Assembly (NCBI GenBank): GCA_964016885.1
Contig: OZ024742.1
Location: 119,226,001-119,290,000, forward strand
Length of the DNA: 64,000 nucleotides
Direction: 5' to 3'
DNA from: Eledone cirrhosa
Lineage: Eukaryota
Part shown: positions 10,481 to 64,000 of the stretch, one piece after another
Numbering within the stretch: the stretch's first letter is position 1
Layout: each line of letters starts with the position of its first letter
The notes under the pieces: generated by a model
The model's database searches: none
What the model saw: the letters and a program-made list of their open reading frames with translations, nothing else
Told to the model about the DNA's origin: nothing
Position numbers and translations under genes: made by a program

Positions 10481-10609
10481 GTGAGGTTTTTTTTACAAAA
10501 TGAAAAATAACCGGTGTCCTACACGAGTGAAAGTGTAAAGAAAAAGAGATGAAATCGAAAATGCAACTGGAGTCTTATTTTTAAAAAAAATATATATATT
10601 TATTTGGTT

Positions 10610-10647
10610 CCTTTACCGGTTTCGCAGTTCTTCTGCTTTTCAAAAGG
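10610..10647 (-). ncRNA. Minimal type I hammerhead, U3-A8 core variant
   Basis: Exact reverse complement of 10710-10747. Confidence 0.85.
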
Positions 10648-10709
10648 TGAGTTGAGATGGAGGGTCTGTGGTTTTTCTCGAAAAACCACAGACCCTCCAT
10701 CTCAACTCA

Positions 10710-10747
10710 CCTTTTGAAAAGCAGAAGAACTGCGAAACCGGTAAAGG
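10710..10747 (+). ncRNA. Minimal type I hammerhead, U3-A8 core variant
   Basis: CCTT-TTGAAAA-GCAG-AAGAA-CTGC-GAAA-CCGG-TA-AAGG. Palindromic ACCGGT stem III and a GUA cleavage site. Confidence 0.85.
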
Positions 10748-10816
10748 AACCAAATAAATATATATATTTAAAAAAAAAATAAGACTCCAGTTGAATTTTC
10801 GATTTCATCTCTTTTT

Positions 10817-11617: not shown

Positions 11618-11707
11618 GCAAATATATGAACACGCGCACAGATATGCGGGTGCACACACACATACATATATATATATGTATGTATATATATATATATATA
11701 TATATAT

Positions 11708-11824
11708 AACGAAGGAAAAGGGGTAAGGAACCAGGTGGACCATAACGCACCAAAGTACTCAATACTTAGGGTAGTAGAGTGGGTAATAGGAACAAGTAAG
11801 ACCCCATGGGGTCTTACTTGTTCC

Positions 11825-11827
<3 letters not shown>
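11708..11827 (-). mobile_element. 3'-terminal piece of the Penelope-like family seen at 32.6 kb, capped by a 42-bp perfect palindrome
   Basis: Aligns by eye to 32625-32711. Palindrome spans 11786-11827. Flanked by (TA)n. Confidence 0.8.
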
Positions 11828-11859
<32 letters not shown>

Positions 11860-11862
11860 TAC

Positions 11863-11968
<106 letters not shown>

Positions 11969-12759: not shown

Positions 12760-12823
<64 letters not shown>

Positions 12824-12835
12824 TTTATAGAAGGA

Positions 12836-12884
12836 GCTTCTACAGGACTAGTACTGTTTCATTCAGATGAAATCTTCAGGAAGC
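12836..12884 (-). ncRNA. Type I hammerhead ribozyme, intact core
   Basis: GCTTC-CTGAAGA-T-TTC-ATCT-GAA-T-GAAA-CAG-TACTAGTC-CTG-TA-GAAGC. Confidence 0.85.
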
Positions 12885-12886
12885 CA

Positions 12887-12934
12887 TTTCCTGAAGATTT
12901 CATCTGAATGAAACAGTACTAGTCCTGTAGAAGC
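12887..12934 (+). ncRNA. Type I hammerhead, inverted twin of 12836-12884
   Basis: Right arm of the fold-back spanning 12822-12948. Confidence 0.8.
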
Positions 12935-29053: not shown

Positions 29054-29093
29054 CCGAGAACAATTGTTTCACCTTCACGGATCGTCAGCTCGG
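29054..29093 (-). ncRNA. Minimal type I hammerhead ribozyme
   Basis: CCGAG-CTGACGA-T-CC-GTGAA-GG-T-GAAA-CAATTG-TT-CTCGG. Confidence 0.85.
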
Positions 29094-29145
29094 GATGTGT
29101 ATGGTTATAATAACCATACACATCCCGAGCTGTTGTGTAACCACT

Positions 29146-29535: not shown

Positions 29536-30350
29536 TAGCTGAGTAGCCCGTCGTTGCCGGCTAATAATCACAATAGTATGCTTTTATTTCATTAAAATTC
29601 CATGTCAGACCATGTCTCCCCCGAATGATAGTCCCCTTGGTGAGGACATCCAGTAGAAAGTTGACCATGGGCGAAACAAAGCTCTTCAAGGTGTAAACTG
29701 GCAACGGAAAATGTTTGTCCCTGTGATTTGTTGATGGTCATGGCAATACTAAGACCCACAGGAAATTGAAGTCGTTTAAATTGAAATGGGACATCAGTGG
29801 AGATAAGGGGAATTCTTAGAATGAACACATCCTCTCCCTTACCACATCCTGTTGAAATAGTGGCTTGAATCACGTGTAGATACATATTTTTCAATACCAA
29901 TCGAGTGCCGTTGCATAGCGTTGGTGGGTCTAATTTCCTCAATAACATGATGGGTGCTCCTTCTTTAAGGTGAAGGACATGTGGAGGCATTCCTGATGGT
30001 TTTAATGAGTTGAGAAACTTTGTCGGGCAATTGACAGATTCTGACTGTTCCACCACAGTGTCGACAGGTCGTTAGAGACTCGAAACCTTTGGAATTCTTT
30101 TTAACAGTTCTTGGTTTACCAATTTCACAGTCACATTTTTCGGAGCCAATATAGTCATTTCACTGAGCCACTTGGGACTGGCAAACTGATATCCAGTTTT
30201 TCTATAAGATGACATATTGATTCCACCATCGTGCCTATGGGACTTATATCAATAGCTCCTTTGCTATCTACTTGAAGAATACCTGTCCACATATAAATAT
30301 GTGGACAGGTATTCAAGTTTTACATTTATTGTAGTCCCCATTTTCAGCGA
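29535..30350 (-). mobile_element. Helitron 3' portion: PIF1-like helicase C-terminus and 3' terminus
   Basis: FLNSLKPSGMPPHVLHLKEGAPIMLLRKLDPPTLCNGTRL...RLQFPV...AMTINKSQGQT. The terminus is a hairpin-like CCGGCAACGACGGG followed by CTAG|T at 29535. Confidence 0.9.
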
Positions 30351-32150: not shown

Positions 32151-32707
32151 GTCCTCGAAAAGTGGGAGGATCATTGAACCCACTTCAATTGACCATAATT
32201 CTCTTAGCTTAATGTAGAGTATATATAAGACGAACAGACTATTGAATCTCTATATCGCCAGGCACCTTGCAGGCGTGCAATTTCATGCATGAAAGCGGTA
32301 TTGTATTTGTAATACCAGTTTTCACAACAGATTGGAGATAAATACATATAAATATTATCACTAGAAATAGATGAAAAACTGACTGAGCACGAACACGTGT
32401 GCATCATGTCATGTTGACGTTGGGAAAATGGAATAATTTAGATTTACGTCAAAGGAATGTGGTTGAGTGTTTGGGTTTACTAAAAAGAAATCCTGCCACC
32501 TGCATATTTTAAGAGACGAAAGGCAGAGAGACGGGCTGAAGAAGAAAAGAAGGAAGAAGGCAAGAGAACGAGAGTAAAAAAAAAAAATAAAATAAAAAAA
32601 TATATATATATATAGCAAAGGAATTGTGGTAAGGAACCAGATGAACCATAACGCACCCGAGTTCTCAATACTTAGGGTAGTAGAATGGGAAATAGGAAAA
32701 AGTATGA

Positions 32708-32801
32708 CCCCGACGGCAGAGATCAAGCCGTTTCGACGGCTATTTCTGGACTAAATTAGAATTTTTTACCTGGTGAATAAATAGCCGAACTTTTCAAGGG
32801 G
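32708..32801 (-). ncRNA. Type I hammerhead, U3-A8 core variant
   Basis: CCCC-TTGAAAA-GTTCGGCTATTT...AAATAGCCGTC-GAAA-CGGC-TTGATCTCT-GCCG-TC-GGGG. Predicted cleavage between 32712 and 32711. Confidence 0.8.
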
Positions 32802-33337
32802 GGTACTCCCTTATATGGGAAGATTGTAGTTGTCAAGAGGATTGGTTAAAATTTGTTGTAAACACAAATAAGTCTATCATGGCATTTGGTGGGAGGTAGG
32901 GGTGGCTGAACTTGTCTGTAGAACAATAGGGGAGTGACAGGAGCGGTCAAGCGTTGAAAGTGATATGTATACAGCAGATTCTGAGGATAGAGTATGAAGT
33001 GGAGGAGGGACGTTATAGAATAGGTAAATCGAATGAGAGTAGAAGACAATAAAAGATAATAGAAATAAATAAAAAAATATATAAAATTAGATAGTGAGAA
33101 ATGAATAAAAAAAAAATCACAATGCTATCTTACAATTACAGGTTATAGAAAAACTTGTAGAAATTGAGTAGTACCAGAACTGATACAGAATTAAAGGGGT
33201 TTAACACGTCTGCTATAAGTAGTTAGTAAAACGTATTCGCCCAATTCTATCTTAAGATTGCAGGGGTGGGGGAACTGATGCTACAGAGGCCCGATGGGCT
33301 GCATCGGGGTAGACGAAGGGGAAAGCAGACGAGGAAG

Positions 33338-33875
33338 AAAATAGGGGGTGGAAGGAAGTGATAGGATGAGACAGGGGGAAGAAGAAGACAAAGAGGAAAA
33401 GAAAAGAAAAGATATACATCTACCTAAGTAAGCTGGGGTTTTCCCTAACTTATTCGGCAAGTAGGGGGTATCAGCCCTTCTCTACCCACCCGGGTCGTTA
33501 TGGGGTTTGAGGGCGAGGTAAGTCCTACGCAATCTGTGTTTGTATGCGGTTACCAGTCCCTCTTTCTTGTTTAGGAGTTGGTCCTTCGAAAACAGCATTT
33601 GTAATGTTACATTACAAATGCTGTTTTCGAAGGACCAACTCCTAAACAAGAAAGAGGGACTGGTAACCGCATACAAACACAGATTGCGTAGGACTTACCT
33701 CGCCCTCAAACCCCATAACGACCCGGGTGGGTAGACAAGGGCTGATACTTGCCGAATAAGTTAGGGGAAACCCCAGCTTACTTAGGTAGATGTATATCTT
33801 TTCTTTTCTTTTCCTCTTTGTCTTCTTCTTCCCCCTGTCTCATCCTATCACTTCCTTCCACCCCCTATTTTCTAT
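33338..33875. repeat. ~265-bp-arm palindrome of the Penelope ORF end and 3' UTR
   Basis: Centre at ~33608. The ORF track shows an identical 64-aa ORF on both strands. Confidence 0.95.
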
Positions 33876-35035
33876 TGTCGTTATGGGGTTTGAGGGCGAG
33901 GTAAGTCCTACGCAAAGGGGTGGCCCTTTTGAGCACACTCCAGGTCAGGTTGTAATCGATATTCTTTTTTCTATAATTATTAATTGTTGCAGCCAAGGAT
34001 GTTGTATTAGCTAATGCGGCATTTTTAAAACTGTTTGTGGGTATTAAATCTTACTTTAAATTGGTTAGAAGTAGCTCCTATATATGAATAAGTTGAGTCC
34101 TTAGTGCTAATTTTACATTTATATACTATGTTATTAATAAGACAATTTCCCTTTAATGGACAATTTCTTTTGTTTCTACAGTTACAACCATTCGTGAATA
34201 TTATATCAGGGGAGTTAGTCAAATTTGGTGTGGAATTTACTCGACTTGTTATATGTGAAAGAGATGGTGGTTTGTTGCGGTTTATTTTAGTATTATCGTT
34301 GGTTTGATGTGTTGGTGGTATATTCGTGTTTTTTTTACATTTATATGCATTGTACGCACTTATATTTTGTTGTATATTTTTGGTAGGGGAGTAGGAAAAT
34401 TTGACAGTTGATCTATTTAAAATTTGATGGTATTTATGGTTTGGCGGAAAGATTTTCTCTAGGATAGTAAAATTTTTTTTAGGGATATTATCTTTAATTT
34501 GTAGATTAAATGGAACATTATACCAAGTAACTCGTCTATTACGGTTTCGGTGTTGTTTTTTATATTTATACGATGTATCAGGATGTTTACTAAGAGAGTT
34601 AGTATTAGTGAATTTATTATATATAGGTTTAGTTAGATTAACTGATTTAGGTGTTTTAGTCTGATTATTAGGAATTTTGTTAGTAATGTTATTAACGTAT
34701 ATTGGAGTATTAGGATGAATGGTTTTTTGAAAGTTATATTGTATGTGAGAAGAGGTAGAGAAATTAAGTTTTAAGTTGGTATTTTGGGGTGTAGTGTGAG
34801 TGGCATTTAGGTGTGTTTTTCATATTGGGTTGTATGTTTGAAGTAGTATTGGTGCAAGGTATGTAGACTAATTTGTTTTTGTGGCCGCTTCTAGCTAACG
34901 CTTCGTTATAAAAGGACGCATTTTTATCGAATACATCCTGGTAAGATGAAAGGTTAGAAATTCTGAGTGAGATATTATATGCTAGGTTTTTAAGGATAGA
35001 TCTAGGGTGATTGGATTGTGAGTGTATGTAATGTA

Positions 35036-49400: not shown

Positions 49401-51347
49401 CTTCCTCTATATCCCTTTCTCATATCCTCTCTCACTTTTACTCCGAAAGAAATCGGCTGAATTAAACTTTGGAAAGGGATGGGCCACGCCAAGTTTAAAT
49501 ACCCAAGACACACCTTATATGATTACGGTGCCCGTTCGTATCAATCAGGTGTTAAGAGCACATGGCATAGTATGGCATCTTCTTTTGACAATTCCAAATA
49601 TTGTTTCCATTTTATTTATAAGATTTTTTGTTGGTGAGCAGTATTAATATTTCGTTTCTGAATTTGTTTAGCAAGATTCTTTATCTGAAATCGTGTGTTG
49701 AAACCGATATTGTTATACTTTGGGAGGGTCATGTTGCCAATATTGTTTTTCCTGTGATAAACATCGCCACATAATTGATAGTCTTTCCTAGATAAATGAA
49801 CTTTTTCCCTCTTCCAAATGCATGATGGCACGTTTTTATTGTTTGGCTTTTATTTACTTTTATATTTACAAGATACTACTTTGAAATTGTTGAAAGACAT
49901 ATAAACAAGCTTTAATTAAACAAATTAAATGACACTACTGTATTGTAAATATTCATCCTGGACTTCGTTAATCACCATCAACATTAACTCAGTGACTCTC
50001 GTATCAATGCTAGTTAAATTCTGTCGGTCTTCTAGCGAGATCTTTAAAGAAACGAAATCTTGATTCATTTCCTTAAGAATACATTTCGATTGCATATATT
50101 ATTCGCTCTTCCAGTAATACACTTATTACTGTCATTGCTTCTATAGTCCCTGACACCTGACACTTTGGTGTGGACGGCGAGTCTAACAGTAAAGTAATGT
50201 AGTAGCAGTATGAGTACAGTTTGTTGAGATATGTGATGTCATATCTGTTTTAGGAATAAATTCATGTAGTATCACTTGTGTAGGGTTCTCAATTTCGGGA
50301 ATAAAATTAATTTAGCACTTTTAAGGGGGGAAAAATATATATAACACTCATCCATCCTCTTCCGTTTAGAAAATGTTGTTTAGTGTAATGTTTTGGTGTT
50401 AAATAATTTAGATCTGGATGAAGCTTCTCCCAATATACTTTCATTCTATTAATATAACCAACAGAGGGATGATATATAGGATGCAAACGTTACAATAGAT
50501 TTCTGTTCAAGTAAAGTTGGGACCCATCAACCATGAGCGATAGTTCATCTGCGTTCAAATACGAAACCATAACTTACAAAGTCTCTAAAAAAACATGATT
50601 ACATTTGGAATATAATGCCAGGGTAGCAAAATAGAATTTTCTCTACAATTCTTTTGAAGGTCACGCATATTGTTTAGAGAAAGTCTTGTTCTATTGATGA
50701 GAGTTGCCTGATTGGCACGTAAATGTCTGATGTTTTATTTGTTGGCTTCTATGATGACTATGGTATCTTGGGTGTGGTAATTTTGTAAGTGTTTTTGAAA
50801 CAGGAAGTACTTTGATTCCTATATATAGTTCTCAGAGAGTATTTATGCATGATTTATTCCCAGCTTGACTACCTTTCATATTAGGTACATGTCTACATTG
50901 TTGATCAGGCGATTAGAAAGTGTACATATGTTCTTGTTGTCCGAAAGTCGGTCTTTGATTAAAACTTCCTCACTGAGGATCCTAACTGCACCAGTGTATA
51001 TTCATACGGCAGTGGTCTGTCCTCTTCTTAAAAAGCGATAGCATAAGCCACCTCTTGGGGAGTGCGCAATTCTTGCTGGTGCATTGGCATCCTGGGGTTT
51101 AGTGAGGGATGTTGGATAACTGTTTTCTACCAGGATTATTTGGAATTCTTTGGTACCGGTGTCAGTGTCCCTAGTATTGCTGCAGCTGTCCGAGAATCAG
51201 CACTCAGTACATCAGCCGTTTTGGTTCTGCTGAGAAGGGATGAGTCGTGGGGAACAAAGAAGCACCCGCAGAAAGCTTTCATCTAAAATTTGGTTTATAT
51301 GGGGCCATTGATCACTTCCCTATGATTTTCCAGCATACAACATACAC

Positions 51348-51412
<65 letters not shown>
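51348..51412. repeat. (TATC)n microsatellite
   Basis: Direct reading. Confidence 0.98.
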
Positions 51413-53013
51413 GAGGCGGTCGGCACCTTACTGGAGGAGTACGAAAAGTTCACAGGGGCTAAGCTGAACCGGGACAAGTCGATCGGTTTGCAACTCGGCA
51501 CGTGGAGGGGCAGACCGATGCCCTCCGATAGCGTCGTCGGACGCTGGACGGAGGGCCCGGTGAAGTTGCTCGGGGTCTGGTTCGGACCGGACCTCCAGGT
51601 GGAGAAAAACTGGGCGGAGGTTACGAACAGGGTGTTTGCACTGACCCAGAAGTGGGCCAGTTGCAAACTATCCCTGAAAGGTCGGGCGGAGGTGGCGAAC
51701 ACCTACATAGCGTCCGTCATCTACTACCGCCTGACCGTAGTGCCCTGCCCAAGGGAAACCCTCACCAAGATGGAGCGCGCGCTCTTCCAATTCCTTTGGA
51801 AGAGGCGGGCTCCTATGGTGAGGAGATCCATCTGCTGTCAACACCCTTCGAAAGGAGGGCTGGGGATGCCGTGGCTAATGATGCGTAAACACGCATTAAG
51901 GCTACGGCACCTCTACGTATTCCTCACCGGACAACCGGTGTGGGCCTCGTTTGTGAGACGAACCTTTCCCAGACTCGTCTCACTCACCGAGCTGCAATCC
52001 TGGGTCAAGCAAAGACCGAGAAAACTGGGCGCCTGGCACACTGAGTGTGCCCAGGCGCTCACCGCCCTCTGGCAGGCGGATCTGGTTATCAGTGGAGACT
52101 CCACCGCAACATTCTATAGAGGGCTGGTGCGCAGCAGGTGCGACGACGCCCTCGGAGAAGCCCTAGACATGGAGGAGGACGAACTGGCCAGCCTGTTCGG
52201 TAGGACATTCAGCCCGGGACCTATGGACAACTTCCAGAAGTCCCTGGCCTGGCAGTGCTACCGAGGGGCTTTACCCGTTCGAGAAAGGCTCTACAGACAC
52301 GGGCGCCCGGGTAGGGACCCCGCCAAAAAGATCTGTCCCAGATGCGTGTGCGACGAGGAAACCGTTGCACACGCATTAGTACACTGCTCGGGCGTAGCCG
52401 ATCTGTGGGGCTATGTCGAACAACTGCTGTCAAGGGTGGGACCGATCCGGTTGACCACCGAGTCTATTGTAATGATCAAGCCGCCTCCCCCCTTCAAAGA
52501 TGAAGCAGAGGCGGTGTTTCTGTGCGTAATAGCCATGGCGAAAGAGGTTGTATGGTGGACGCGTCTGAAAGGACTGAGGTCAGGCACCTTTCTCTCTGGC
52601 CAACAACTGGTCCGTTTCTTCCGATATCATTTCGGAAGAAGGATCAGGATGGAGAGAGAGGTGCTGCACCCCAGTCGTTTTTATGAAAGATGGGTGAAAG
52701 TGGCGAGAATGGCCCGTGTGAATGGGCCTTCACTCTACATCAGACTATAGGTGAGGAAGATGAAAGACCAAGGGAGCACCCCTTCTCTGTGCTCCTGAGG
52801 AGAAGGGTTGCACACCTTTTTCGGGGGTGTGTGCGACCCCCCAAGGCGCCTCCTCTCTATTGAGGATTTTGTTAAAAATTTTATTTTTTGTTATATCTTA
52901 TTTTATTTTTATATTTTGTTATTGCCTCCTCCTTATTGAGGACGCCTTTTTGTGTAAACTCCCCCCTTTGTACTTGTCCCACTTTTGATGCCCTAGTGGC
53001 AAATAAAAGAAAC

Positions 53014-53014
<1 letters not shown>
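51413..53014 (+). mobile_element. Tx1/L1-clade LINE copy A, 5'-truncated; ORF2 C-terminus open to 52750
   Basis: KLLGVWF, LSLKGR, GGLG and CPRC...HALVHC (zf-RVT). AATAAA at 53002. (TATC)n on both sides. Confidence 0.92.
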
Positions 53015-53109
<95 letters not shown>

Positions 53110-53110
53110 A

Positions 53111-53179
<69 letters not shown>
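53015..53179. repeat. (TATC)n microsatellite
   Basis: Direct reading. Confidence 0.98.
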
Positions 53180-53513
53180 GGTTTTACTTGAGACGTGTGC
53201 CAGTTCGCTGGTAAGTTTTTGTTGATTTTCTAAGTAAGAAATCAAAAATTTATTGTTAAATTTATTACTATTTTATAGCTTGATCCCACGTCTGGACTTT
53301 CAGATGGTGGATCAAGTCATCTTCACCCCTCCCTGGGGTGAAATTTTCGTTTTGAAAAAAATTTCGCCGGTGAAAAAAAAAAGTCTAAACAAACCTTGCA
53401 TTCAGTTCATAACTAGAAGTGGTGGAGAGGCGGTAAGAGTGTTAAGCTCGCAGTCACCTCCTCTCATCACCTCATTGAAAGACATCGAAAATGTCGCCAG
53501 TTTTGAAAACACG

Positions 53514-55355
53514 ATGTCGGACGTTGATTGTAACATCAACACTAACACAAACACCAATAACATGCAAAATATAAACAACACCAACCAGAACAACAACAAC
53601 AACAACAATAATGACAACAAGAACAACAACAGCAACAATGATAACAACAACACCACCACCACCACCACCAACAACAACAATGATAACAACACCATCACCA
53701 ACAACAGCAGCAACACGAACAACTCTACGAACAAGGAAAAGATTTCTTTTGCTCAAACCGTCCAAAAGACGGAACTGTTCACATACCTTGACATTTCCAA
53801 TGCTAGGGAAATGTTAAGCGATGCAAAACAGTACGTAACTTTTGGTGAGAGTGGTGCTTTCAGCATCACTTCTCCTTAACAGTTACGCAGAGAAACTGTT
53901 CTAAAAACAGTAATTTTTAGGACGGTTTCAAATGTGTCGAAAAAACCAGTTCAGTTATCCCAAAACGATATTGAACTGGTTCTGAAGAATTCCATGAAGG
54001 ATATTGCCTTCATCCAAAAAGGGAAACTTTTTGGAAGCATTTCGGTGTTGTTGAAAGACCAATTGACAGCACACAAATATTCTGTATCGCCGATTGTGTC
54101 CCCCCTTTACACCTCTTGCCCCACATATATGGGAAAAAGAACTCAAAGAATAAAAATTTTGAACATTGCACCAAATGTAAACGTTTGGTGGACTTTAACT
54201 GGCTTTATCGATTTCGACGAAGACACCATCATTTCGGTGGGAAAGTCCTCCAGAGGCACATTCAATGGTACAAGCATGGAAGTTCTGGTCCAAATGAAGC
54301 CAGAACGGATAGCTAAAATACCCCAACGTGTGCCTCTGGATGGAATTTCACACATAAACATTTCTGTTGGTGGTAGGCGGCCTTCATGTTACCACTGTTT
54401 AAGAAGTGTCACCTGAAGGCTTACTGTCCTCAGTTAACTAAAAAAAAAAGAGGCACTACTGCCAACACCCAAAACAACAACACAACCACCACCACCACCA
54501 CCACCACCACCACCACCACCACCACCACCACCACCACCACCACCACCACCACCACAACAACAACAACACACAAACACAACCAAAACAAGAATAACAAACC
54601 AACCTGCAAGCACAGTTCCACCCAACCCCACTCCACCTAAAACCACTGCAAAAACACCCACAAACACAACAGCTCCCCAAAAGATACCCCTTCCAAATAA
54701 CACAGACACCACAACGGACGAGGCCCCCACATCATCACCAAGTGATGATGAGGGAGAGCCTCTCCGTTCGAAAAGAAAAAAGAAAAGACACCACAAGAAC
54801 AAAAAAACAACAAACATCACTACAAACATACAACCACCAACACAAACAACCCAAACATTACAAACAAAACCCCCCCGTCCCGAAAACAAAACCACGACAT
54901 CACTCCAAACACAAACACCTACAACAAAACGAAAGCTCCCACAAGAACAACAGACAAAAACCACCGCAACACAAGAACATTACACATACATAAACAGTAA
55001 AAACAAAACTTTAATGGAGGTCATCTCCAACGACCCTTCGGTGAAAACCGAAGGGAAAACTTTTTCGAACTGTGTAGACAAACCTAATTTAAAGATGATT
55101 AGGGTCCCTACGGACACCTATAAGTCTTTAAAGGAAAACTTTCCTAAGGACGTGGGTAATCCTTGTGTTAAACCCATTAACCATGTCCTTTTAAAAAGTT
55201 TCCCCACCCTCACCCCAGACACACCCACCCCAGACACCCCCATCCCACCAAACATCTCCGTCCCCACCCCGCCGGAAACCACCACCCACCCAGACAACTC
55301 CTCTAACACCCACATGGAAACCGTGCGGCCTGATCCCCAGGAGACGAAGAGGTGA
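53514..55355 (+). pseudogene. Copy B ORF1 (Gag-like, CCHC knuckle, low-complexity N/T/P tracts), disrupted
   Basis: SFAQTV; GRRPSCYHC/..HLKAYC; ends ETKR*. Colinear with copy D ORF1. Confidence 0.75.
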
Positions 55356-55392
55356 GTGTTTTCTTCTCCTCTTTTAACTTTTCAGAACCAAC

Positions 55393-58300
55393 ATGGCCAA
55401 TATAAGAGTTGGGTGTGTGAATGAATGTACGTGGCCTGGGGATGCCCTGGAAACAGGGCAAACTCTTAAACAACCTCAGGTCGCACAGTATGGATGTAGT
55501 AGCCATTTGCGAGTCCAGGATCCACAGCGAGCGACAGCTGGCCCCCATCTTCGATGACTTTGAGATCTACGCATCTCTCTGTCAGCCGGGGGGTGGGGGA
55601 GGGGTTGCCATTTTGCTGCGTAGACACCTGGGCCTCGTAACACAGACGGTACATCTGAACCCGGAGGGTCGACTGGTGGTACTAGACGTTGACGGTAGTG
55701 AAGGTGGAGCCTTCAGGCTGGTGGCCGCATATGCCCCATCCGAGACACCGTGACCAGACTTCTTCAAACGTCTAGAGACTTTTCTGGGAACGTCCCGCTC
55801 CTTGCTTTTAGTGGGGGACTGGAATGGATTCCTAGATGCACGTTGGGACTATGTGGGAGCATGTCCCTATAAAGGGGGGTGTAACATCCTCAAACAGTTA
55901 AGCGGCCGATTTGACCTGGCCGATAGATATCGACTAGATTTTCCGACTGTGCCACTGTGGACGTGGACTAATCGTAGCGGAACATCTAGATCGTACCTAG
56001 ATAGGGTTCTAGTTAGAAATAAGGATAGGGACATGTTAAGCTGTCCACAAATATTCATGGTTGCCTATTCAGATCACAAACTAGTGACCTGCATGGTCAA
56101 CCTTGATAGAAACCATAGACAAGGACCCGGCTACTGGAAGCTGAACTTGTCGTTACCGACATGCAAAGCCTACAGTAGACGGATTAGCACTTTAGTTAAA
56201 CAGCACTTGACAGGGGTCATTTTCAACAACAGATGGTGGTACTCTCTCAAGAGGGCAGTTAGATTAGACTCATTAGTTTTTAGTAAAGAATTAGCGTTAG
56301 ATAGAAATAGAACTGAGAAAGAATTGGTAGATAAAGTAGAAAAGGCAATTAGAAGTGGCAACGTAGCCAGCATGCTAGCAACGAGAACGGCCTTGGACCA
56401 GTTCTTCGACGCAAAGCATGAGGGCTCCGTTGTCAGAAGCAAAATACGTGCTCAGGGAAACGAGGGAGCCAAAGCTGTTAGCTGGGCCCGAGTGACGGAG
56501 GCAAAAATTGGCAACAAGTCCACGATTCGGTCTTTGAAGGACCAAAACGGACGCGTGATACGTGAGCCGAAGCAGATGTGTGCGGCCTATCAGCGGCACT
56601 TTGCTCAGCTGTTCGGGCAGGGCGGCGCGCCGGGAGGGGCTATGGATTTCGGTCCATACCTCGACGGCCTACCGCAACTCTCGGACAGCAAGGCAACGTT
56701 CTGCGAAAAGCCGATTTCAGCCGCTGAGATAGGGGACGCGTTGAGCCAATGCGGCAAACGCAAATCTCCAGGTCTCGACGGTCTACCCTACGAATTTTAC
56801 GTAGCAATGCCGGACTTATTCTCCGGTCTCCTGGAAGCGGTCTAATGCAACTGGCAACAGAACGGGAGAATTCCTAGTTCTGTGACCGGGGGCGTAGTCA
56901 CACTAGTCAGGAAGGACGAGAATAAGGGGGATGACATAGGCAACTTCCGGCCCATAACTCTGCTAAACACAGAGTTACAGATTTTAGCCAAGGTGTTGGC
57001 AAAGAGGCTGGCGCTTGTCGTCGAGAACCTGGTGGGAGAAGCGCAGACATGCGCAATCCTGACCAGGTCCATACATGACAACCTCCACCTCATGCGACAC
57101 ATCATAGAGAGGGTAGGGTGTAAACCCGGCTTCGGTGGGGTCCTGATCAACTTGGATCAGTCTAAGGCTTTCGATAGGGTTGACCATCGTTACCTGGATT
57201 CGGTGCTCGAGGCGGCAGGCTTCGGACCCGTGTTCAGGGGCTGGATTGCTGCAATGCATAACAGCAACATCTGCTCAAGGGTTAAGGTGAACGGCTACTT
57301 CTCGGAGCCGTTCCATATCACGCGATCCATTCGACAGGGATGCCCTCTCTCCTCCCTTCTGTACGTATTGACTCTCGAGCCACTACTGCGGAAGTTGGAG
57401 CTATTGCAGGGCATCCCTCTGGAACCGGGACTGCGGAAAGCGGCGTCGGCCTACGCCAACGACTTGACAGTAATGGTGTCGAGCGCCTCGCAAATCGAGG
57501 AGGTCGGCACCTTACTGAAGGAATACGAAAGGTTCACAGGAGTGAAGCTGAACCGGGACAAGTCCATCGGTTAGCAACTCGGATCGTGGAGAGGCAAGCA
57601 GATGCCTTCCGATGGCGTCGTCGGACGCTGGACGGAAGGACCAGTAAAGCTGCTCGGGGTCTGGTTTGGTCCGGACCTCCAGGTGGAGAAGAACTGGAAC
57701 GAGGTGTCGGCCAAGGTGTTTGCACTCACCCAGAAGTGGGCCGAGTGCAAAATATCATTGAAAGGTCGAGCGGAGGTGGCGAACACTTTTATAGCGTCCG
57801 CCATCTACTACCGCTTGACCGTCGTGCCTTGTCCAGCCAAAACGCTCGCCAAAATGGAGCGCGCGCTCTTCCAATTCCTTTGGAAGAGGCGGGCTCCTTT
57901 GGTGAGAAGATCCATCTGCTGCCAACGCCCTTCCAACGGAGGGCTGGGGTTGCCGTGGCTGACGATGCGCAAACACGCACTCAGGCTGCGGCATCTCTAC
58001 GTATTCCTCACCGGACAACCGGTATGGGCCCCGTTCGTGAGGCGAGCCTACCCACGACTCGTCTCGCTGACCAAGCTGCAGTCCTGGGTCAAGCAAAGAC
58101 CGAGGAAAATGGGCGACTGGCACATCGAATGTGCTTAGGCGCTCACAGTGGACTCCGCTTCGTCATTCTATAGAGGGTTGATCCGCAGTAAGTGCGACGA
58201 CGTGCTCGCTGAAACTCTGGGCGTAGAGGAAGATGAACTGGCCAGTCTGTTCGGTAGGACCTTCCGCCAGGGACCGATGGACAACTTCCAAAAGTCCCTG

Positions 58301-58804
58301 GCCTGGCAGTGCTACCGAGGAGCTCTACCAGTTCGAGACAAGCTCTACAGACATGGGCGCCCGGGCAGGGACCCTGCAAAAAAGATCTGTCCGAGGTGCG
58401 TACGAGACGAAGAAACCGTCGCACACGCATTCATACACTGCCAGGGTGTCACCGACCTGTGGGGCTATGTGGAACGACTATTGTAGCGGGTGGGACCAAT
58501 CCAGTTGACCACCGAGTCCATTGTCATGATCAAACCGCTACCCTCCTTCAAAAAGGAAGGAGAGGCGGTTTTCCTTTGTGTGATAGCTATGGCGAAAGAG
58601 GTTGTATGGTGGACAAGGTTGAAAGGGCTGAGGTCAGACACCTTTCTCTCCGGCCAACAACTGTTTCTTTTTTTTAAATACCACTTCGGAAGAAGAATCA
58701 GGATGGAGAGAGAGGTGCTGTAGCCCAGCAAGTTTTATGAAAGGTGGGTGAAAGTGGCGAGAATGGCCCGAATGAATGGGCCTTCTCTCTATATCAGCCT
58801 GTAG
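55393..58804 (+). pseudogene. Copy B ORF2 (APE endonuclease, RT, zf-RVT), disrupted
   Basis: NVRGL, GDWN, SYLDR, SDH; KSPGLDGLP, FRPITLLN, DQSKAFDRV, RQGCPLS, YAND (YADD mutated); several stops. Confidence 0.92.
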
Positions 58805-59055
58805 GTTGAGGAAAAAGAGGAGGAGAGGAAAGGAGTACAAACTCTTCGTGCTCCTGGAGATGAGGGTTGCACATATTTTTTCGGGGGTATGTGTTACCCA
58901 TATGTAATGTCACCCCTATTGGGGAAAATCGATTAATTTTTAAATTGCATTTGTGATAATATTTTACACGTTTTTATTGTATGTAAACTTCCCCCTTTGT
59001 ATTTGTCCCCTTCTTTTGTGCCCCTGTGGCTAATAAAGAAACATATCTGTCTATC

Positions 59056-59915
59056 AACAAGTGCGACGACGCGCTCGGAGAAACTCTAGGCGTAGAGGAA
59101 GACGAACTGGCCAGTCTGTTCGGTAGGACCTTCTGCCCGGGACCGTTGGACAACTTCCAAAAGTCCCTGGTCTGGCAGTGCTACCGAGGAGCTCTACCAG
59201 TTCGAGACAAGCTCTACAGACATGGGTGCCCGGGCAGGGACCCTTCGAAAAAGATCTGTCCGAGATGCGTGCGAGACGAAGAAACCGTCGTGCACGCATT
59301 CGTACACTGCCCGGGCGTTACCGACCTGTGGGGCTATGTAGAACGACTATTGTCGCGTGTGGGACCAATCCGGTTGACCACTGAGTCCATTGTCATGATC
59401 AAACCGCTACCCTCCTTCAAAAACGAAGGAGAAGCGGTTTTCCTTTGTGTGATAGCTATGGCGAAAGAGCTTGTATAGTGGACGAGGTTGAAAGGGCTGA
59501 GGTCAGACACCTTTCTCTCCGGCCAACAACTGATTCTTTTTTTCAAATACCACTTTGGAAGAAGAATCAGGATGGAGAGAGAGAGAGGTACTGTACCCAA
59601 GCAAGTTTTATGAAAGGTGGATGAAAGTGGCGAGAATGGCCCGAGTGAATGGGTCTTCTCTCTATATCAGCCTGTAGGTTGAGGAAAAAGAGGAAGAGAG
59701 GAAAGGGGTACTCACTCTTCGTACTCCTGGAGATGAGGGTTGCACATTTTTTCGGGGGTATGTGTTACCCATATGTAATGTCTCCCCCTATTGGGGAAAA
59801 TCGATTAATTTTTAAATTGCATTTGTGATAGTATTTTACACGTTTTTATTGTATGTAAACTTCCCCATTTGTATTTGTCCCCTTCTTGTGTGCCCCTGTG
59901 GCTAATAAAGAAACA
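59056..59915 (+). mobile_element. Tx1 copy C, 5'-truncated
   Basis: zf-RVT region and 3' UTR are near-identical to B. Flanked by TATC units. Confidence 0.9.
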
Positions 59916-59926
59916 TATCTATCTAT

Positions 59927-62900
59927 TATCAACAACAACAACAATACAACAAAAGGAATCAGCGACAACACAACGAGTGAGACCATCATCACCACCACCA
60001 ACAAAATTTCATTTGCAGCAACCGTTGCTAAGCAACAGGATTTTAAATACTACCCCATGGACATTTTAGAAAAGTTCCAATATTTGGAAGAAGCTTCCAA
60101 CTATGTGACGTTTGAGGGAGACACCCCACACATACACATACCCCCACAAATAAGAGAGATGACGCAAAAAAACTGATCTACAGAACAGTTGACATTATTA
60201 CAAAAAAATTCATAACGCTCCCAACAGCACTATTGAAGCTGCACTAAAAGAAATCAAGCCAGACGTGGCATACCCACAAAGAGGTAAACAGTATGGAAGT
60301 GTGTCAGTGCTCTTTAAGAGCGAAACTCTGGCTCAAAAACACCCTGTTCACCCAATCAAAACGAGTCAAAACATCTTCCTCACATACATGGGAAGAAGAT
60401 CCTAAAAAATAAAAATAACAAGGATCCCAGCAGAGGTCAACATATGGTGGATCCTACGCTGCATCCTGAAGAAGGATGAGGACACCCTCCTATCTGTAGA
60501 CAGGACAGACCCGGAATAATTGGTTTGGAACCTGTATCGAGGTTCTGGTACAAATGAGGCCAGAGAGAGTTGAGAAAATCCCGGACAGGATCGTCCTTGA
60601 GGAAGATGTCATCTCCATTTTAGTGAAGGGGAAAAGACCTCAGTGCCATAAGTGTGGGAAAACCACACACTTAAAGGCCCTTTTAAACAAATCGAGGACA
60701 AACAAGGTGTTATTACCAACACCAAAACCCCAACATCAACACCCCAAACCAAACACAACACAAAAACTTGCAGCATCCACTCTCACACCACCCCAGACCA
60801 GAGACAGCCACACACCCAACATCCTAATGAAAATCCCTCTCTTGCCTCCTCCCTCCCTGTCAAATACTTCCATAAACACCTGCACAAACACTCCACCACA
60901 CAACATACCCCTCCCATCTACCCCTGATTCAGAAGTCTCAGACACGAGAACCTCTACATCTCCAAGTGAGGATGAAGGGGAACCCCAAAAATAAAAAAAA
61001 CAAAAACAAAAAGAGACAAAAAACCCCACAAAAACAAAAACATCTACAGAAAACAGGCACACACCCAACCCCACCATAAACATACCACCACAATCTACAA
61101 ACACACCAACAACACAATCACCATCAACACAACCAAACACTTCACCAACAAAACAAACACCCACACCACCACAATCACAAACCCCAACTACAAAAAGAAA
61201 ACTACAAACAGAAACAATACAAATAAAAAACAAAAGACATTACACATACATAAAAACAACAAAGAACTAGTAGAAACTGTCCGAAAGGACCCTACTATCC
61301 AAACGGAAGGGAAAACCTTCCCTACCAAAACCCACACCCAAATCTCAAACTGATCAGGGTAACAACCCTTCAACATGAACCATTGAAAGGGACCTTCCAC
61401 ATGATGTCCCCCCCCCCCCCTTGACCAAAACCCCTTAACCGTGTCCTGCTAAAAGGATTCCCTCTCTCCCCAAACACCCGCAATCTGGACATGGAAATCG
61501 AACAACTCGACCTCCAGGAAACTAAACGGTAAGTGTTCCTGCCTTTTCTCTCCCTAACTCTTCTTCACCAATATGGCGACTATAGAAGTTGGATGTTTGA
61601 ATGTACGTGGCCTAGGCATGCCCTGGAAACAGGGCCAGTTTTTAAATGACCTCAGGTCACATTGTATAGATGTGATAGCCATCACCGAGTCCAGGGTTCA
61701 CGACAAGCAGCAGCTAATCCCCATGTTCGATGATTTTGAGATCTACGCATCTCTCTGTCTGTCAGGAGGTGGAGGGGGAGTTGCTGTTCTATTTCGAAAA
61801 AACCTGGATTTCAAAGTACAGACGATTCACTTGGAACCCGAGGACTAGTGGACGTATATGCTCCGACTGGGACATCGCGACCAGACTTCTTCAAGTGTTT
61901 GGAGCCATTCCTGGGAACGTCTCGCTCCTTAGTGTTAGCGGGGGACTGGAATGGCATCTTAGACGCACGTTGGAACTACTTAGGAGCTTGTGATAATAGA
62001 GCGGAGTATAATAGCCTCAAAAATCTCATCAGCTAATTGCAACTGGCTGATAGATATCGACTAAACTTCTCAAGTGCACCACTGTGGACGTGGAGCAACC
62101 GCACTGGGTCTTCTAGATCGTATTTAGATAGATTTCTAATTAGATAGAATGATAAGGAACCATTAAGCTGTCCACAAATGCACATGGTTGCCTATTCAGG
62201 CCACAAATTAGTCACCTGCATAGTCAACCGTGATAGAACACACAGACAGGAACCCGGATACTGGAAGCTAAATATGTCGTTCCCGACGCGTAAGGCCTAC
62301 AGTCAACGGATTAGCACCTTAGTTAAGAGCCAGTTGACGGGGGCCATCGTCAAAAACAGTTGGTGGAGCTCTCTCAAGAGGGCAATTAGAATAGAATCGA
62401 TAGCATTTAGCAAGGAAGTAGCTTTAGAAAAAAACAAAACTGAAAAGGAACTGGTAGCTAAAGTAGAAGAAGCACTTAGGAATGACAGTACAGCTGACGT
62501 GCTAGTGGCGAGAACGGCACTAGACCAGTTCTTCAACGTGAAACACGAAGGTTGTATTGTCAGAAGTAGAACACGTGCTCTAAGAAACAAGGTAGCCAAA
62601 GCTGTTAGCTGGGCCCGAGTGGCAGAGGCGAAAAGTGGCAACAAATCCACGATTCAGTCTTTGCAAGACAAAGACGGACGCATTCTACTTGAATCCAAGC
62701 AGATGTGCACGGCCTTCCAGCAGCACTTTGCACAACTGTTTGGGCAAAATGGTACGTCAAGCGAGGTGATGGACTTCAGTTCCTACCTCGACGGCATACC
62801 ACAACTCTCGAGCACGGATGCAGAGAGCTGCGAATGGCCGATCACAGCGGGCGAAATAGAAGATGCCCTAGGCCGCTGCGGGAAACGCAAATCACCCGGT

Positions 62901-64000
62901 TTAGATGGTCTACCCTATGAGTTTTACATAGGCAGGCCAGACTTGTTCTCTGGCGTCTTCGAAACGGTCTACTGCAACTGGCAGCAGAACGGGAGGATTC
63001 CCAGTTCTGTAGGCAGAGGCGTAATAATGCTGATCAGGAAAGATGAGAACAAGGGGGATGAGATAAGCAATTTCAGGCCCATAACTCAACACAGAGTTAA
63101 AGATTTTGGCCAAGGTGTTAGCAACGAGGCTGGCGCTTGTCGTCGAGAGCCTGGTAGGGGAAGCGCAAACGTGTGCAACCCGACCAGGTCCATACACGGC
63201 AACCTTCACCTCATGCGATACATCATAGAGAGGGTAGGTGTAAACCTGACTTCGGTGGGGCTCTGATCAATTTAGATCAGTCTAAGGCATTTGATAGGGT
63301 CGACTATCAATACTTGGAAGCAGTTCTCAAGGCGGCCGGCTTCGGTCCCGTCTTCACAGGCTAGATCGCTGCCATGCACACCAGCATCCGCTCGGCAGTC
63401 AAGGTGAATGGTCACCTATCGAAACCATTCCAAATCATGCGTTCCATCCGACAGGGATGCCCTCTCTCCCCCATTCTGTATGTACTGACTCTCGAGCCAC
63501 TACTGCGGAAGTTGAAGCTGTTGCAGGGCATCCCAATCGAACCACGTAATGGTGTCGAAAACCTCGGACATCGGGGTAATCGGCAACCTATTACAGGAAT
63601 ACGAAACGTTGACAGGAGCAAGACTAAACCCAAACAAGTCTGTCGGTTTGCAACTCGGCACATGGAGAGGCAAACTCATGCCTTTCGACAGTGTCGTTGG
63701 ACGCTGGACGGAAGGACCGGTGAAATTGCTCTGGTTTGGTCCAGACCTCCAGGTGGACAAGAACTGGAACGAGGTCACGGTGAAGGTCTTTGCACTCACC
63801 CAGAAGTGCGCTGAGTGCAAACTCTCCTTGAAAGGTCGAGTGGAGTTGGCGACACTTACATAGCGTCCGTCATCTACTACCGCTTGACAGTCGTGCCTTG
63901 TCCCCGCGAATACCTCACTAAAATGGAACGCCTACTTTTCAAGTTCCCCTGGAAGAAACAGGCTACATTGGTGAGGAGATCCATCTGCTATCAATACCCT
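59927..64000 (+). mobile_element. Tx1 copy D (starts in ORF1; disrupted ORF2 from 61573), running off the window end
   Basis: CHKCGKTTHLKA knuckle, then MATIEVGCLNVRGL and RT motifs as in B. Confidence 0.92.

What the first reader, a model, noticed from the sequence alone, without database searches (positions are those of the whole stretch)
11708..11827. Fold-back begins exactly at the predicted ribozyme cleavage site
Seen: 11725-11805 is homologous to 32630-32711. In the 32.7-kb copy the hammerhead would cut GUC|GGGGUC between 32712 and 32711. The 11.8-kb copy stops precisely at that GGGGTC (11805) and continues, after AT, as its own 20-bp reverse complement into (TA)n. Inference: this is a fossil of reverse transcription of the self-cleaved 3' product followed by cDNA snap-back. 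It is in-genome evidence that this family's ribozyme defined RNA 5' ends.
Basis: partly seen in the sequence, partly recalled or inferred. Interest (0 to 1): 0.8.

Follow-up and report, generated by a model that had tools for sequence, protein, structure and literature searches.

The report
Jumping gene fossils mark ribozyme cut
This 120-base hairpin is one of roughly 260 insertions of a Penelope-like jumping gene whose two arms both stop at the single base where the element's hammerhead ribozyme is predicted to cut, likely a genomic record that such ribozymes cut their RNA in a living animal.

Summary
The palindrome is real and centred on the predicted hammerhead cut (+1). It belongs to a Hydra-clade Penelope-like element with over 25,800 copies and a U3-A8 type I hammerhead.

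The spike test passes. 389 loci have both arms reaching +1 within 14 bases. Of the 150 listed, 61 stop exactly at +1 with untemplated bases (mostly A/T) and 28 join bluntly; neighbouring positions show 0-1 each.

(1) This class is about 1% of copies. Most junctions lie at -41 to -46 (4,840 loci) and carry a cap-like extra G (88 G, 12 A), so a capped start site is likely the main RNA 5' end.
(2) Snap-back fits poorly. The inverted arm ends at a family-wide site (+20) and is the longer arm in 30 of 82 loci. Likely two cDNAs, primed at +20 and +98, were joined head to head.

Cleavage itself is inferred; there are no RNA data. The scan saw similar fold-back Penelope insertions in another genome (e1-9963876), folded beside the cut. 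I found no paper with genomic evidence of in-vivo cleavage in these elements.

The parts
11708..11805 (-). Forward arm of the mini-insertion: element positions +1 (11805, first G after the predicted cut) to +98; includes the tail +21..+98 (11708-11785)
   Evidence: 802 candidates for the distal 75 nt
11806..11807 (.). Untemplated AT spacer; likely one added A on each of two cDNAs
   Evidence: the same AT spacer recurs at 2 A-type and 3 B3-type loci among those listed
11808..11827 (+). Inverted arm, element positions +1 to +20; +20 is the family-wide tail-less end
   Evidence: loose ends into (TA)n at the +20 equivalent (32692) in short-read contigs
11662..11707 (.). (TA)n target microsatellite, tail side
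11828..11966 (.). (TA)n target microsatellite, inverted-arm side
32692..32817 (-). Type I hammerhead ribozyme in the pseudo-LTR of the longer copy; extended stem I reaches about +20; predicted cut between 32712 and 32711
32790..32797 (-). Catalytic box UUGAAAAG (U3-A8 variant; position 7 varies A/C/T/G across copies)
   Evidence: variant described in PMC4209133
32752..32752 (-). A at -41: commonest 5' end of family insertions; likely a capped transcription start inside loop II of the ribozyme
32615..33607 (-). Forward arm of the longer copy: endonuclease C-terminus (about 33482-33607), 3' UTR/pseudo-LTR, hammerhead and tail
33608..33873 (+). Inverted arm of the longer copy; its fold lies about 900 nt upstream of the cut

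Best explanation
The 11.7-kb hairpin is a miniature insertion of a Hydra-clade Penelope-like retrotransposon, likely made when an RNA already cut by the element's hammerhead was reverse-transcribed twice and the two cDNAs were joined head to head. Steps: (1, shown) the family carries a U3-A8 type I hammerhead and inserts in (TA)n. (2, shown as fixed ends; inferred as priming sites) insertions have two outer ends, +20 and +98/+100, both ending in TAT, which would let both cut target strands prime on the RNA. (3, inferred) both cDNAs run to the RNA's 5' end. For most RNAs that is a capped start at -41 to -46, giving arms with an extra G. For about 1% it is the uncapped ribozyme cut at +1, giving arms with no extra base or an added A. 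(4, inferred) the two cDNA ends are joined bluntly, through microhomology, or with short inserted bases; here A + T. (5, inferred) both cDNAs likely come from one RNA molecule or a co-processed pair.
For: Spike (hand tallies of the first 50 loci listed per call): both arms stop at +1 with an untemplated spacer in 20, 16 and 25 of 50, and join bluntly in 17, 5 and 6 of 50 (totals 248, 55, 86 loci). Symmetric junctions at +2..+7: 0 of 50, at +8: 1 of 50, against 20 of 50 at +1. At -1 and -3: 1 each of 150. At -8..-15 only the native palindrome is used, 47 of 50. One-base spacers are A/T in 21 loci and C/G in 5, whereas at -41 the non-native purine is G in 88 of 100; an extra G marks cap copying in L1 (PMC11702581). 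26 of 26 fetched loci share this layout, at sites whose flanks share only short 78-92% repeats. Blunt and 1-nt junction forms also occur in short-read contigs. Two cDNAs: forward arm longer in 32, inverted longer in 30, within 1 nt in 20 of 82; arms carry the same subfamily type in 67 of 69 loci, 23% expected at random. A purified PLE protein cuts and extends both target strands and starts at two internal sites bounding the tail (PMC11167929).
Against: No RNA or biochemical test of cleavage. The blunt class (28 of 150) and the GTC/GAC class (29 of 150) can arise from microhomology (CG at -1/+1; CCG-T-CGG centred on -2) without any cut, and one search shows native palindromes do make sharp spikes. 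In unbiased samples only 1 of 138 B-type and 0 of 29 A-type copies are +1/+1. A few +1 spacers begin with C. Structural covariation rests on one diverged copy (3 pairs). 6 of 91 intact cores read CUGAGAAG, a C3-A8 mismatch. About 7 of the 30 'inverted longer' calls are forward arms with internal deletions (by eye). Some G at -42 come from the opposite arm (3 of the 13 single-arm loci fetched). In the anole element no RNA reads began or ended at the cut and cleavage was not needed in vitro (PMC11167929).
Confidence: 0.68

Rival explanations
1. Reverse transcriptase stalls at the folded ribozyme core, or after the G run, on uncut RNA; the +1 spike would mark structure, not cleavage.
For: +1 is the edge of stem I next to the core. 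A stop at -1 plus CG annealing gives the blunt class (28 of 150). No RNA evidence of a cut exists here.
Against: 61 of 150 listed loci lack base -1 on both arms and carry untemplated bases; one-base spacers are A/T 21 times and C/G 5 times. Most cDNAs pass +1 and end near -41. RNAs starting at -41 lack the 5' half of the ribozyme and could not form the core in cis.
Confidence: 0.12
2. One reading: one cDNA from the cut RNA snaps back on itself and copies 20 bases.
For: The arms are identical and concordant in subfamily type, 67 of 69. Snap-back junctions occur at low frequency for R2 (PMC11331408).
Against: A loop of 0-2 bases cannot self-prime (established RNA/DNA folding constraint). A snap-back copy cannot extend beyond its template, yet the inverted arm is longer in 30 of 82 loci. 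It does not explain the fixed stop at +20, or cap-like C on both arms at -41 (7 loci chosen for that feature).
Confidence: 0.08
3. The short palindromes are remnants of longer ones that lost their centre after insertion, by deletion between microhomologies.
For: CG and CCG-x-CGG repeats would give the blunt and GTC classes (57 of 150). Internal deletions between AGCCGTC repeats do occur (L091, L099, L222).
Against: It gives no reason for both arms to end at +1 when no microhomology is used (61 of 150), or for the lack of such junctions at neighbouring positions.
Confidence: 0.07
4. +1 is a second transcription start, or a protein nuclease site, that coincides with the GUC.
For: C|G fits a pyrimidine-purine start (recalled rule). 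4 of 20 untemplated spacers begin with C on one arm.
Against: The cap-like G dominates at -41 (88 of 100) but not at +1; a CG spacer (cap on both arms) is absent from 150 listed loci. Endonuclease mutants did not affect RNA cleavage in the anole element.
Confidence: 0.05

Closest known systems
Hydra clade of EN+ Penelope-like elements (Craig et al. 2021, PMC8557442)
   Same: C-terminal GIY-YIG endonuclease, CxCX5C linker, DKT, CxxC and CxH motifs, hammerhead in the pseudo-LTR, (TA)n targets, inverted 5'-truncated copy plus a tail at one end.
   Different: RWR instead of RWK; unit about 3.1 kb; tail 78-80 nt rather than 30-40; U3-A8 core; most copies are 150-250 bp palindromes. The passages read map no junctions to RNA ends and call hammerhead function unclear.
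Poseidon element PAc of the green anole (Frangieh et al. 2024, PMC11167929)
   Same: Two internal reverse-transcription starts bounding the tail; both target strands cut and extended; AT-rich targets; hammerhead just upstream.
   Different: There cleavage needed protein, was dispensable in vitro, and left no RNA reads at the cut. Here about 260 genomic insertions end at the cut. PAc priming needs no homology; here both starts end in TAT matching the target.
U3-A8 hammerheads of Schistosoma Cercyon PLEs (Cervera and De la Pena 2014, PMC4209133)
   Same: U3-A8 core covariation, type I topology, long helix II, G10.1-C11.1 pair, palindromic loop III.
   Different: This motif has a full 5-6 bp helix III and an extended helix I, so it could fold as a monomer. 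That paper states there was no in vivo evidence.
L1 twin priming and cap-derived G (PMC11702581)
   Same: Both target ends primed on one RNA, cDNAs end-joined with microhomology or untemplated bases; extra G from the cap.
   Different: L1 arms are adjacent and overlap by at most 1-10 bp. Here they overlap fully, priming sites are fixed, and both run to the RNA 5' end.
R2 elements with a 5' HDV-like ribozyme (PMC11331408)
   Same: A self-cleaving ribozyme sets an RNA 5' end that shows up in insertion junctions; untemplated additions occur.
   Different: Different ribozyme and element class. Here the cut end is a minority product and yields non-coding minis.

Membership tests
Hydra-clade PLE | Single ORF, RT followed by C-terminal GIY-YIG endonuclease | tested here: met
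   YRDD-type RT, then YIG, in copies L303, L306, L331, L332; Pfam gave no hit on three ORFs
Hydra-clade PLE | CxCX5C linker | tested here: met
   CNCPDRSxC in L292, L294, L296, L303, L306, L332
Hydra-clade PLE | DKT in place of DKG; RWK motif | tested here: inconclusive
   DKT present (L331, L333); the other motif reads RWR in 3 of 3 copies with an N-terminus
Hydra-clade PLE | CxxC and CxH flanking conserved E and N; no CCHH | tested here: met
   CNLCSEE...LLNK...CKH; no CCHH seen by eye in these translations
Hydra-clade PLE | Insertion into (TA)n; hammerhead in the pseudo-LTR | tested here: met
   282 of the scored 3' ends are followed by ATATAT; 91 intact hammerheads in fetched loci
Hydra-clade PLE | Groups with Hydra RTs in a phylogeny | not tested
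   No reference Hydra proteins were fetched
Type I hammerhead ribozyme | Core boxes with a 3-8 pair, GAAA, NUH triplet | tested here: met
   UUGANAAG in 85 of 91 copies, CUGAGAAG in 6; GAAAC and GUC conserved
Type I hammerhead ribozyme | Three helices around the core | tested here: met
   92.7% of cells paired against 28-55% when slid; 3 two-sided changes, all from one diverged copy; hammerhead fold within 0.8-2.4 kcal/mol of the minimum in 4 copies. No Rfam hammerhead among the 150 of 242 rows shown
Type I hammerhead ribozyme | Self-cleavage after the NUH triplet | not testable with these tools
   Indirect support only, from the junction spike
Non-LTR retrozyme | Head-to-tail tandem units, each with a hammerhead | tested here: not met
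   The minis are head-to-head, single, and lack the 5' half of the ribozyme
MITE (DNA transposon) | Fixed terminal inverted repeats and uniform length | tested here: not met
   Variable centres and spacers, a one-sided tail, and sequence identical to a PLE pseudo-LTR
L1-type twin priming | Inverted and forward segments adjacent, not overlapping | tested here: not met
   Arms overlap fully from the junction to +20; it likely works like twin priming but is not the L1 pattern

The most novel reading that the evidence does not exclude
The insertion junctions of this family are a base-resolution fossil map of germline RNA 5' ends. They show that a metazoan Penelope hammerhead cuts in vivo, and that the promoter starts inside the ribozyme so the 5' copy cannot cut itself while read-through RNA is cut. 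They also show that the long-unexplained inverted ends of Penelope elements arise because one RNA is copied from both internal start sites onto both target strands.
Probability: 0.5. Interest if true: 0.78.

Novelty: new variant of a known kind. Interest (0 to 1): 0.62.

Why it matters
[quoted passage not shown] Here about 260 insertions end at the predicted bond, beside an internal control of thousands that end at a cap-marked site. The same counting can be run on any assembled genome. It makes in-vivo ribozyme activity and the origin of inverted ends directly testable. It also suggests cleavage yields dead-end minis rather than being required for transposition.

Tried and rejected
Rfam scan: only microsatellite-driven miRNA-type hits among the 150 of 242 rows shown; no hammerhead. 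RNA runs: no RNA holder listed, so there is no expression evidence either way. The protein search with window 34025-34819 was mis-aimed: that ORF belongs to a sister family whose flanks mostly do not match this pseudo-LTR; the right protein came. Pfam did not recognise these ORFs. The first breakpoint mapper overshot junctions and was replaced. A 3' splice site at -40 was considered as the cause of the main peak and set aside, because arms often keep the AG and gain an extra G. Enrichment of the ACTGG subtype among +1 loci (16 of 26 vs 8 of 23) was not significant (p 0.15 as computed on 8 vs 14). Assembly artefact is unlikely: junction variants appear in short-read contigs, though these may be the same individual and no piece spans the focal locus. 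Scan look-ups by sequence and by place found nothing. Literature searches for prior genomic evidence listed none.

Full report
Coordinates: +1 is the first G after the predicted cut (11805 in the short copy, 32711 in the long one); negative numbers lie upstream on the element's strand, which is the minus strand of the window.

1. Observation. 11786-11805 and 11808-11827 are exact reverse complements around AT, between (TA)n tracts. 11725-11805 matches 32630-32711 at 72 of 82 columns. These are the only two family members in the window. The long copy folds as a type I hammerhead with GUC|GGGGUC at 32712/32711. Its core is UUGAAAAG. In 91 intact motifs from fetched loci the box reads UUGANAAG in 85 and CUGAGAAG in 6. 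U3-A8 is a known covariant in Schistosoma PLE hammerheads (PMC4209133). Helices pair in 92.7% of cells against 28-55% when slid, but the three two-sided changes come from one diverged copy. Rfam showed no hammerhead in the 150 of 242 rows displayed.

2. The element. The window lies in a 3.0-Gb genome. A 26-nt tail word has 25,835 exact copies. Copies with an ORF show an RT, a CNCPDRSxC linker, YIG, CNLCSEE, LLNK and CKH; the N-terminus has RWR and DKT. These match the Hydra clade as defined in PMC8557442, apart from RWR for RWK. No tree was built. Near-complete copies run pseudo-LTR, ORF, pseudo-LTR, about 3.1 kb from cut to cut.

3. Family anatomy. I drew samples on the tail alone, so they are blind to what lies upstream: 39 copies plus the focal one, 29 plus the long copy (30 of 40 rows), and 99 of the 100 rows (one duplicate left out). 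The typical copy is (TA)n, an inverted arm starting at +20, a variable junction, a forward arm to +98, then (TA)n. Both outer ends finish in TAT, since native sequence after +98 is ATTTAG. An inverted 5'-truncated copy and a one-sided tail are known PLE features (PMC8557442). Two internal starts bounding the tail were shown in vitro (PMC11167929). Forward arms end at -35..-50 in 83 of 167 copies (top position -41, 18 copies) and at -1..+5 in 9; inverted arms end at -35..-50 in 56 of 82. Only 1 of 138 B-type and 0 of 29 A-type sampled copies are +1/+1.

4. The spike test. Patterns with both arms reaching +1 and up to 14 bases between gave 248, 55 and 86 loci for three subtypes, and 0 for the reversed controls. 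I tallied by hand the first 50 loci listed in each. Both arms stop at +1 with an untemplated spacer: 20, 16, 25 (one ambiguous A-type case left out). Blunt: 17, 5, 6. GTC/GAC: 7, 12, 10. Other: 6, 17, 9. Scaled up, about 160 untemplated and 100 blunt loci, roughly 1% of the family. Downstream control (129 loci): 20 of 50 are +1/+1 (four carry a point change), none symmetric at +2..+7, one at +8; six rows are one local cluster. Upstream control (142 loci): 47 of 50 sit at the native loop III palindrome. That control is a warning as well: microhomology makes spikes, and it can explain the blunt class (CG) and the GTC class. The untemplated class cannot be explained that way. CpG decay cannot either: one-base spacers are A/T 21 times and C/G 5 times. 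All 26 loci fetched share the focal layout at unrelated sites. Blunt and 1-nt forms also appear in short-read contigs.

5. The main end and the control it provides. 4,840 loci have both arms reaching -41 within 14 bases, and short-read depth falls steeply across -41..-49. The native base at -42 is T or C. 3,644 arms have a purine there, and it is G in 88 of the first 100. All 20 such loci fetched are junctions, not native sequence; 13 were single-arm rows and 7 were chosen because both arms show it. In 3 of the 13 the G can come from the other arm. An extra G at 5' junctions reflects cap copying in L1 (PMC11702581). So -41 likely is a capped start, and +1, which gains A rather than C on the cDNA, likely is an uncapped end. 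That is what a hammerhead leaves (5'-hydroxyl; established chemistry).

6. Mechanism. Snap-back predicts that the inverted arm never outruns the forward arm. It is longer in 30 of 82 loci and shorter in 32; about 7 of the 30 are forward arms with internal deletions. A 0-2 nt loop cannot self-prime. Read along the top strand, the layout is what two antisense cDNAs give, one primed at +20 on one target end and one at +98 on the other, joined at their 3' ends. The focal AT then is one added A per cDNA, as GGACTC|GAGTCC is one cap-derived C per cDNA at -41 (L327). Arms share subtype in 67 of 69 loci. Mixed junctions (one arm near +1, the other far upstream) number about 3 of 138, well below the roughly 18% expected if two RNAs were drawn independently. 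One RNA, or a co-processed pair, is therefore likely (rough inference). RNA starting at -41 lacks the ribozyme's 5' half, so cut RNA would come from read-through transcripts. Cleavage would then give non-coding minis and need not be required for transposition, in line with PMC11167929.

7. Against and unknown. No RNA holder was listed and no cleavage was tested. A stall at the folded core remains possible (0.12). The +1 share differs among subtypes (relative to the GTC class: about 5, 1.8 and 3), unexplained. Tallies rest on the first rows in genome order.

8. Literature seen. PMC11167929: parts 1-2 of 4 (abstract, main text, part of methods). PMC4209133: parts 1-2 of 4. PMC8557442: passages and section 11. 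10.64898/2026.07.22.740005: part 1 of 5. PMC11331408, PMC11702581, PMC13282606, PMC10018344: passages. No supplements were read; files S1/S2 of PMC8557442 may list this family and its ribozyme. Older subscription papers on Penelope structure and promoter were not seen. Searches listed no paper mapping PLE insertion junctions to the hammerhead cut or to a cap. The scan's note e1-9963876 (another genome, unchecked here) describes similar minis folding beside the ribozyme.

9. Verdict. Observation confirmed; interpretation partly supported. The element and layout are of a known kind. The single-base, cap-free spike at the predicted cut, set against a cap-marked main end, is new evidence on an open question. 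Interest 0.62.

Noticed in passing
window 12821-12949 (+): A 59-bp-arm palindrome in (TA)n from a different family. It holds a canonical small hammerhead-like motif (CTGAAGA...GAAAC, palindromic loop, GTC), folds just upstream of the first box and has a one-sided tail: the same two-arm layout.
   Followed up: partly
window 10588-10769: An 85-bp-arm palindrome with AT-rich ends and a 12-nt centre; a related stretch lies in L208. Possibly another fold-back retroelement mini-insertion.
   Followed up: no
window 34025-34819 (-): ORF fragment of a sister Hydra-type PLE family (CNCRNKRNC linker; 162 matches reported in the genome) abutting the inverted arm of the 32.7-kb copy, with a 39-nt duplication at 33877-33915.
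   Followed up: partly
window 32752 and family-wide: The likely start sites (-41, -45/-46) sit in loop II of the hammerhead and resemble an initiator (TCAGT/TTAGT; consensus recalled), so transcripts begun there hold only the substrate half of the ribozyme.
   Followed up: partly
L017, L025, L079 just after +98: Native sequence continues ATTTAG after a pyrimidine run, like a 3' splice site; a short ATG frame from about +60 stops there. A 5' UTR intron as in Penelope is possible.
   Followed up: no
loop III, window 32719-32726 and family copies: Loop III is the palindrome TGAGCTCA in B-type copies. It could dimerise two RNAs and is itself a junction hotspot (142 loci).
   Followed up: partly
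L136:1678-1805 (-): A diverged relative with compensatory changes in stem II but a G5-to-C change in the core.
   Followed up: partly
window 24834-24949, 29086-29132, 30277-30314: Further short palindromes unrelated to this family.
   Followed up: no
window 51326-63931: Several LINE-like ORF fragments (endonuclease, RT, gag-like) in tandem; 29592-30071 (-) is a Pif1-helicase fragment (PF21530).
   Followed up: no
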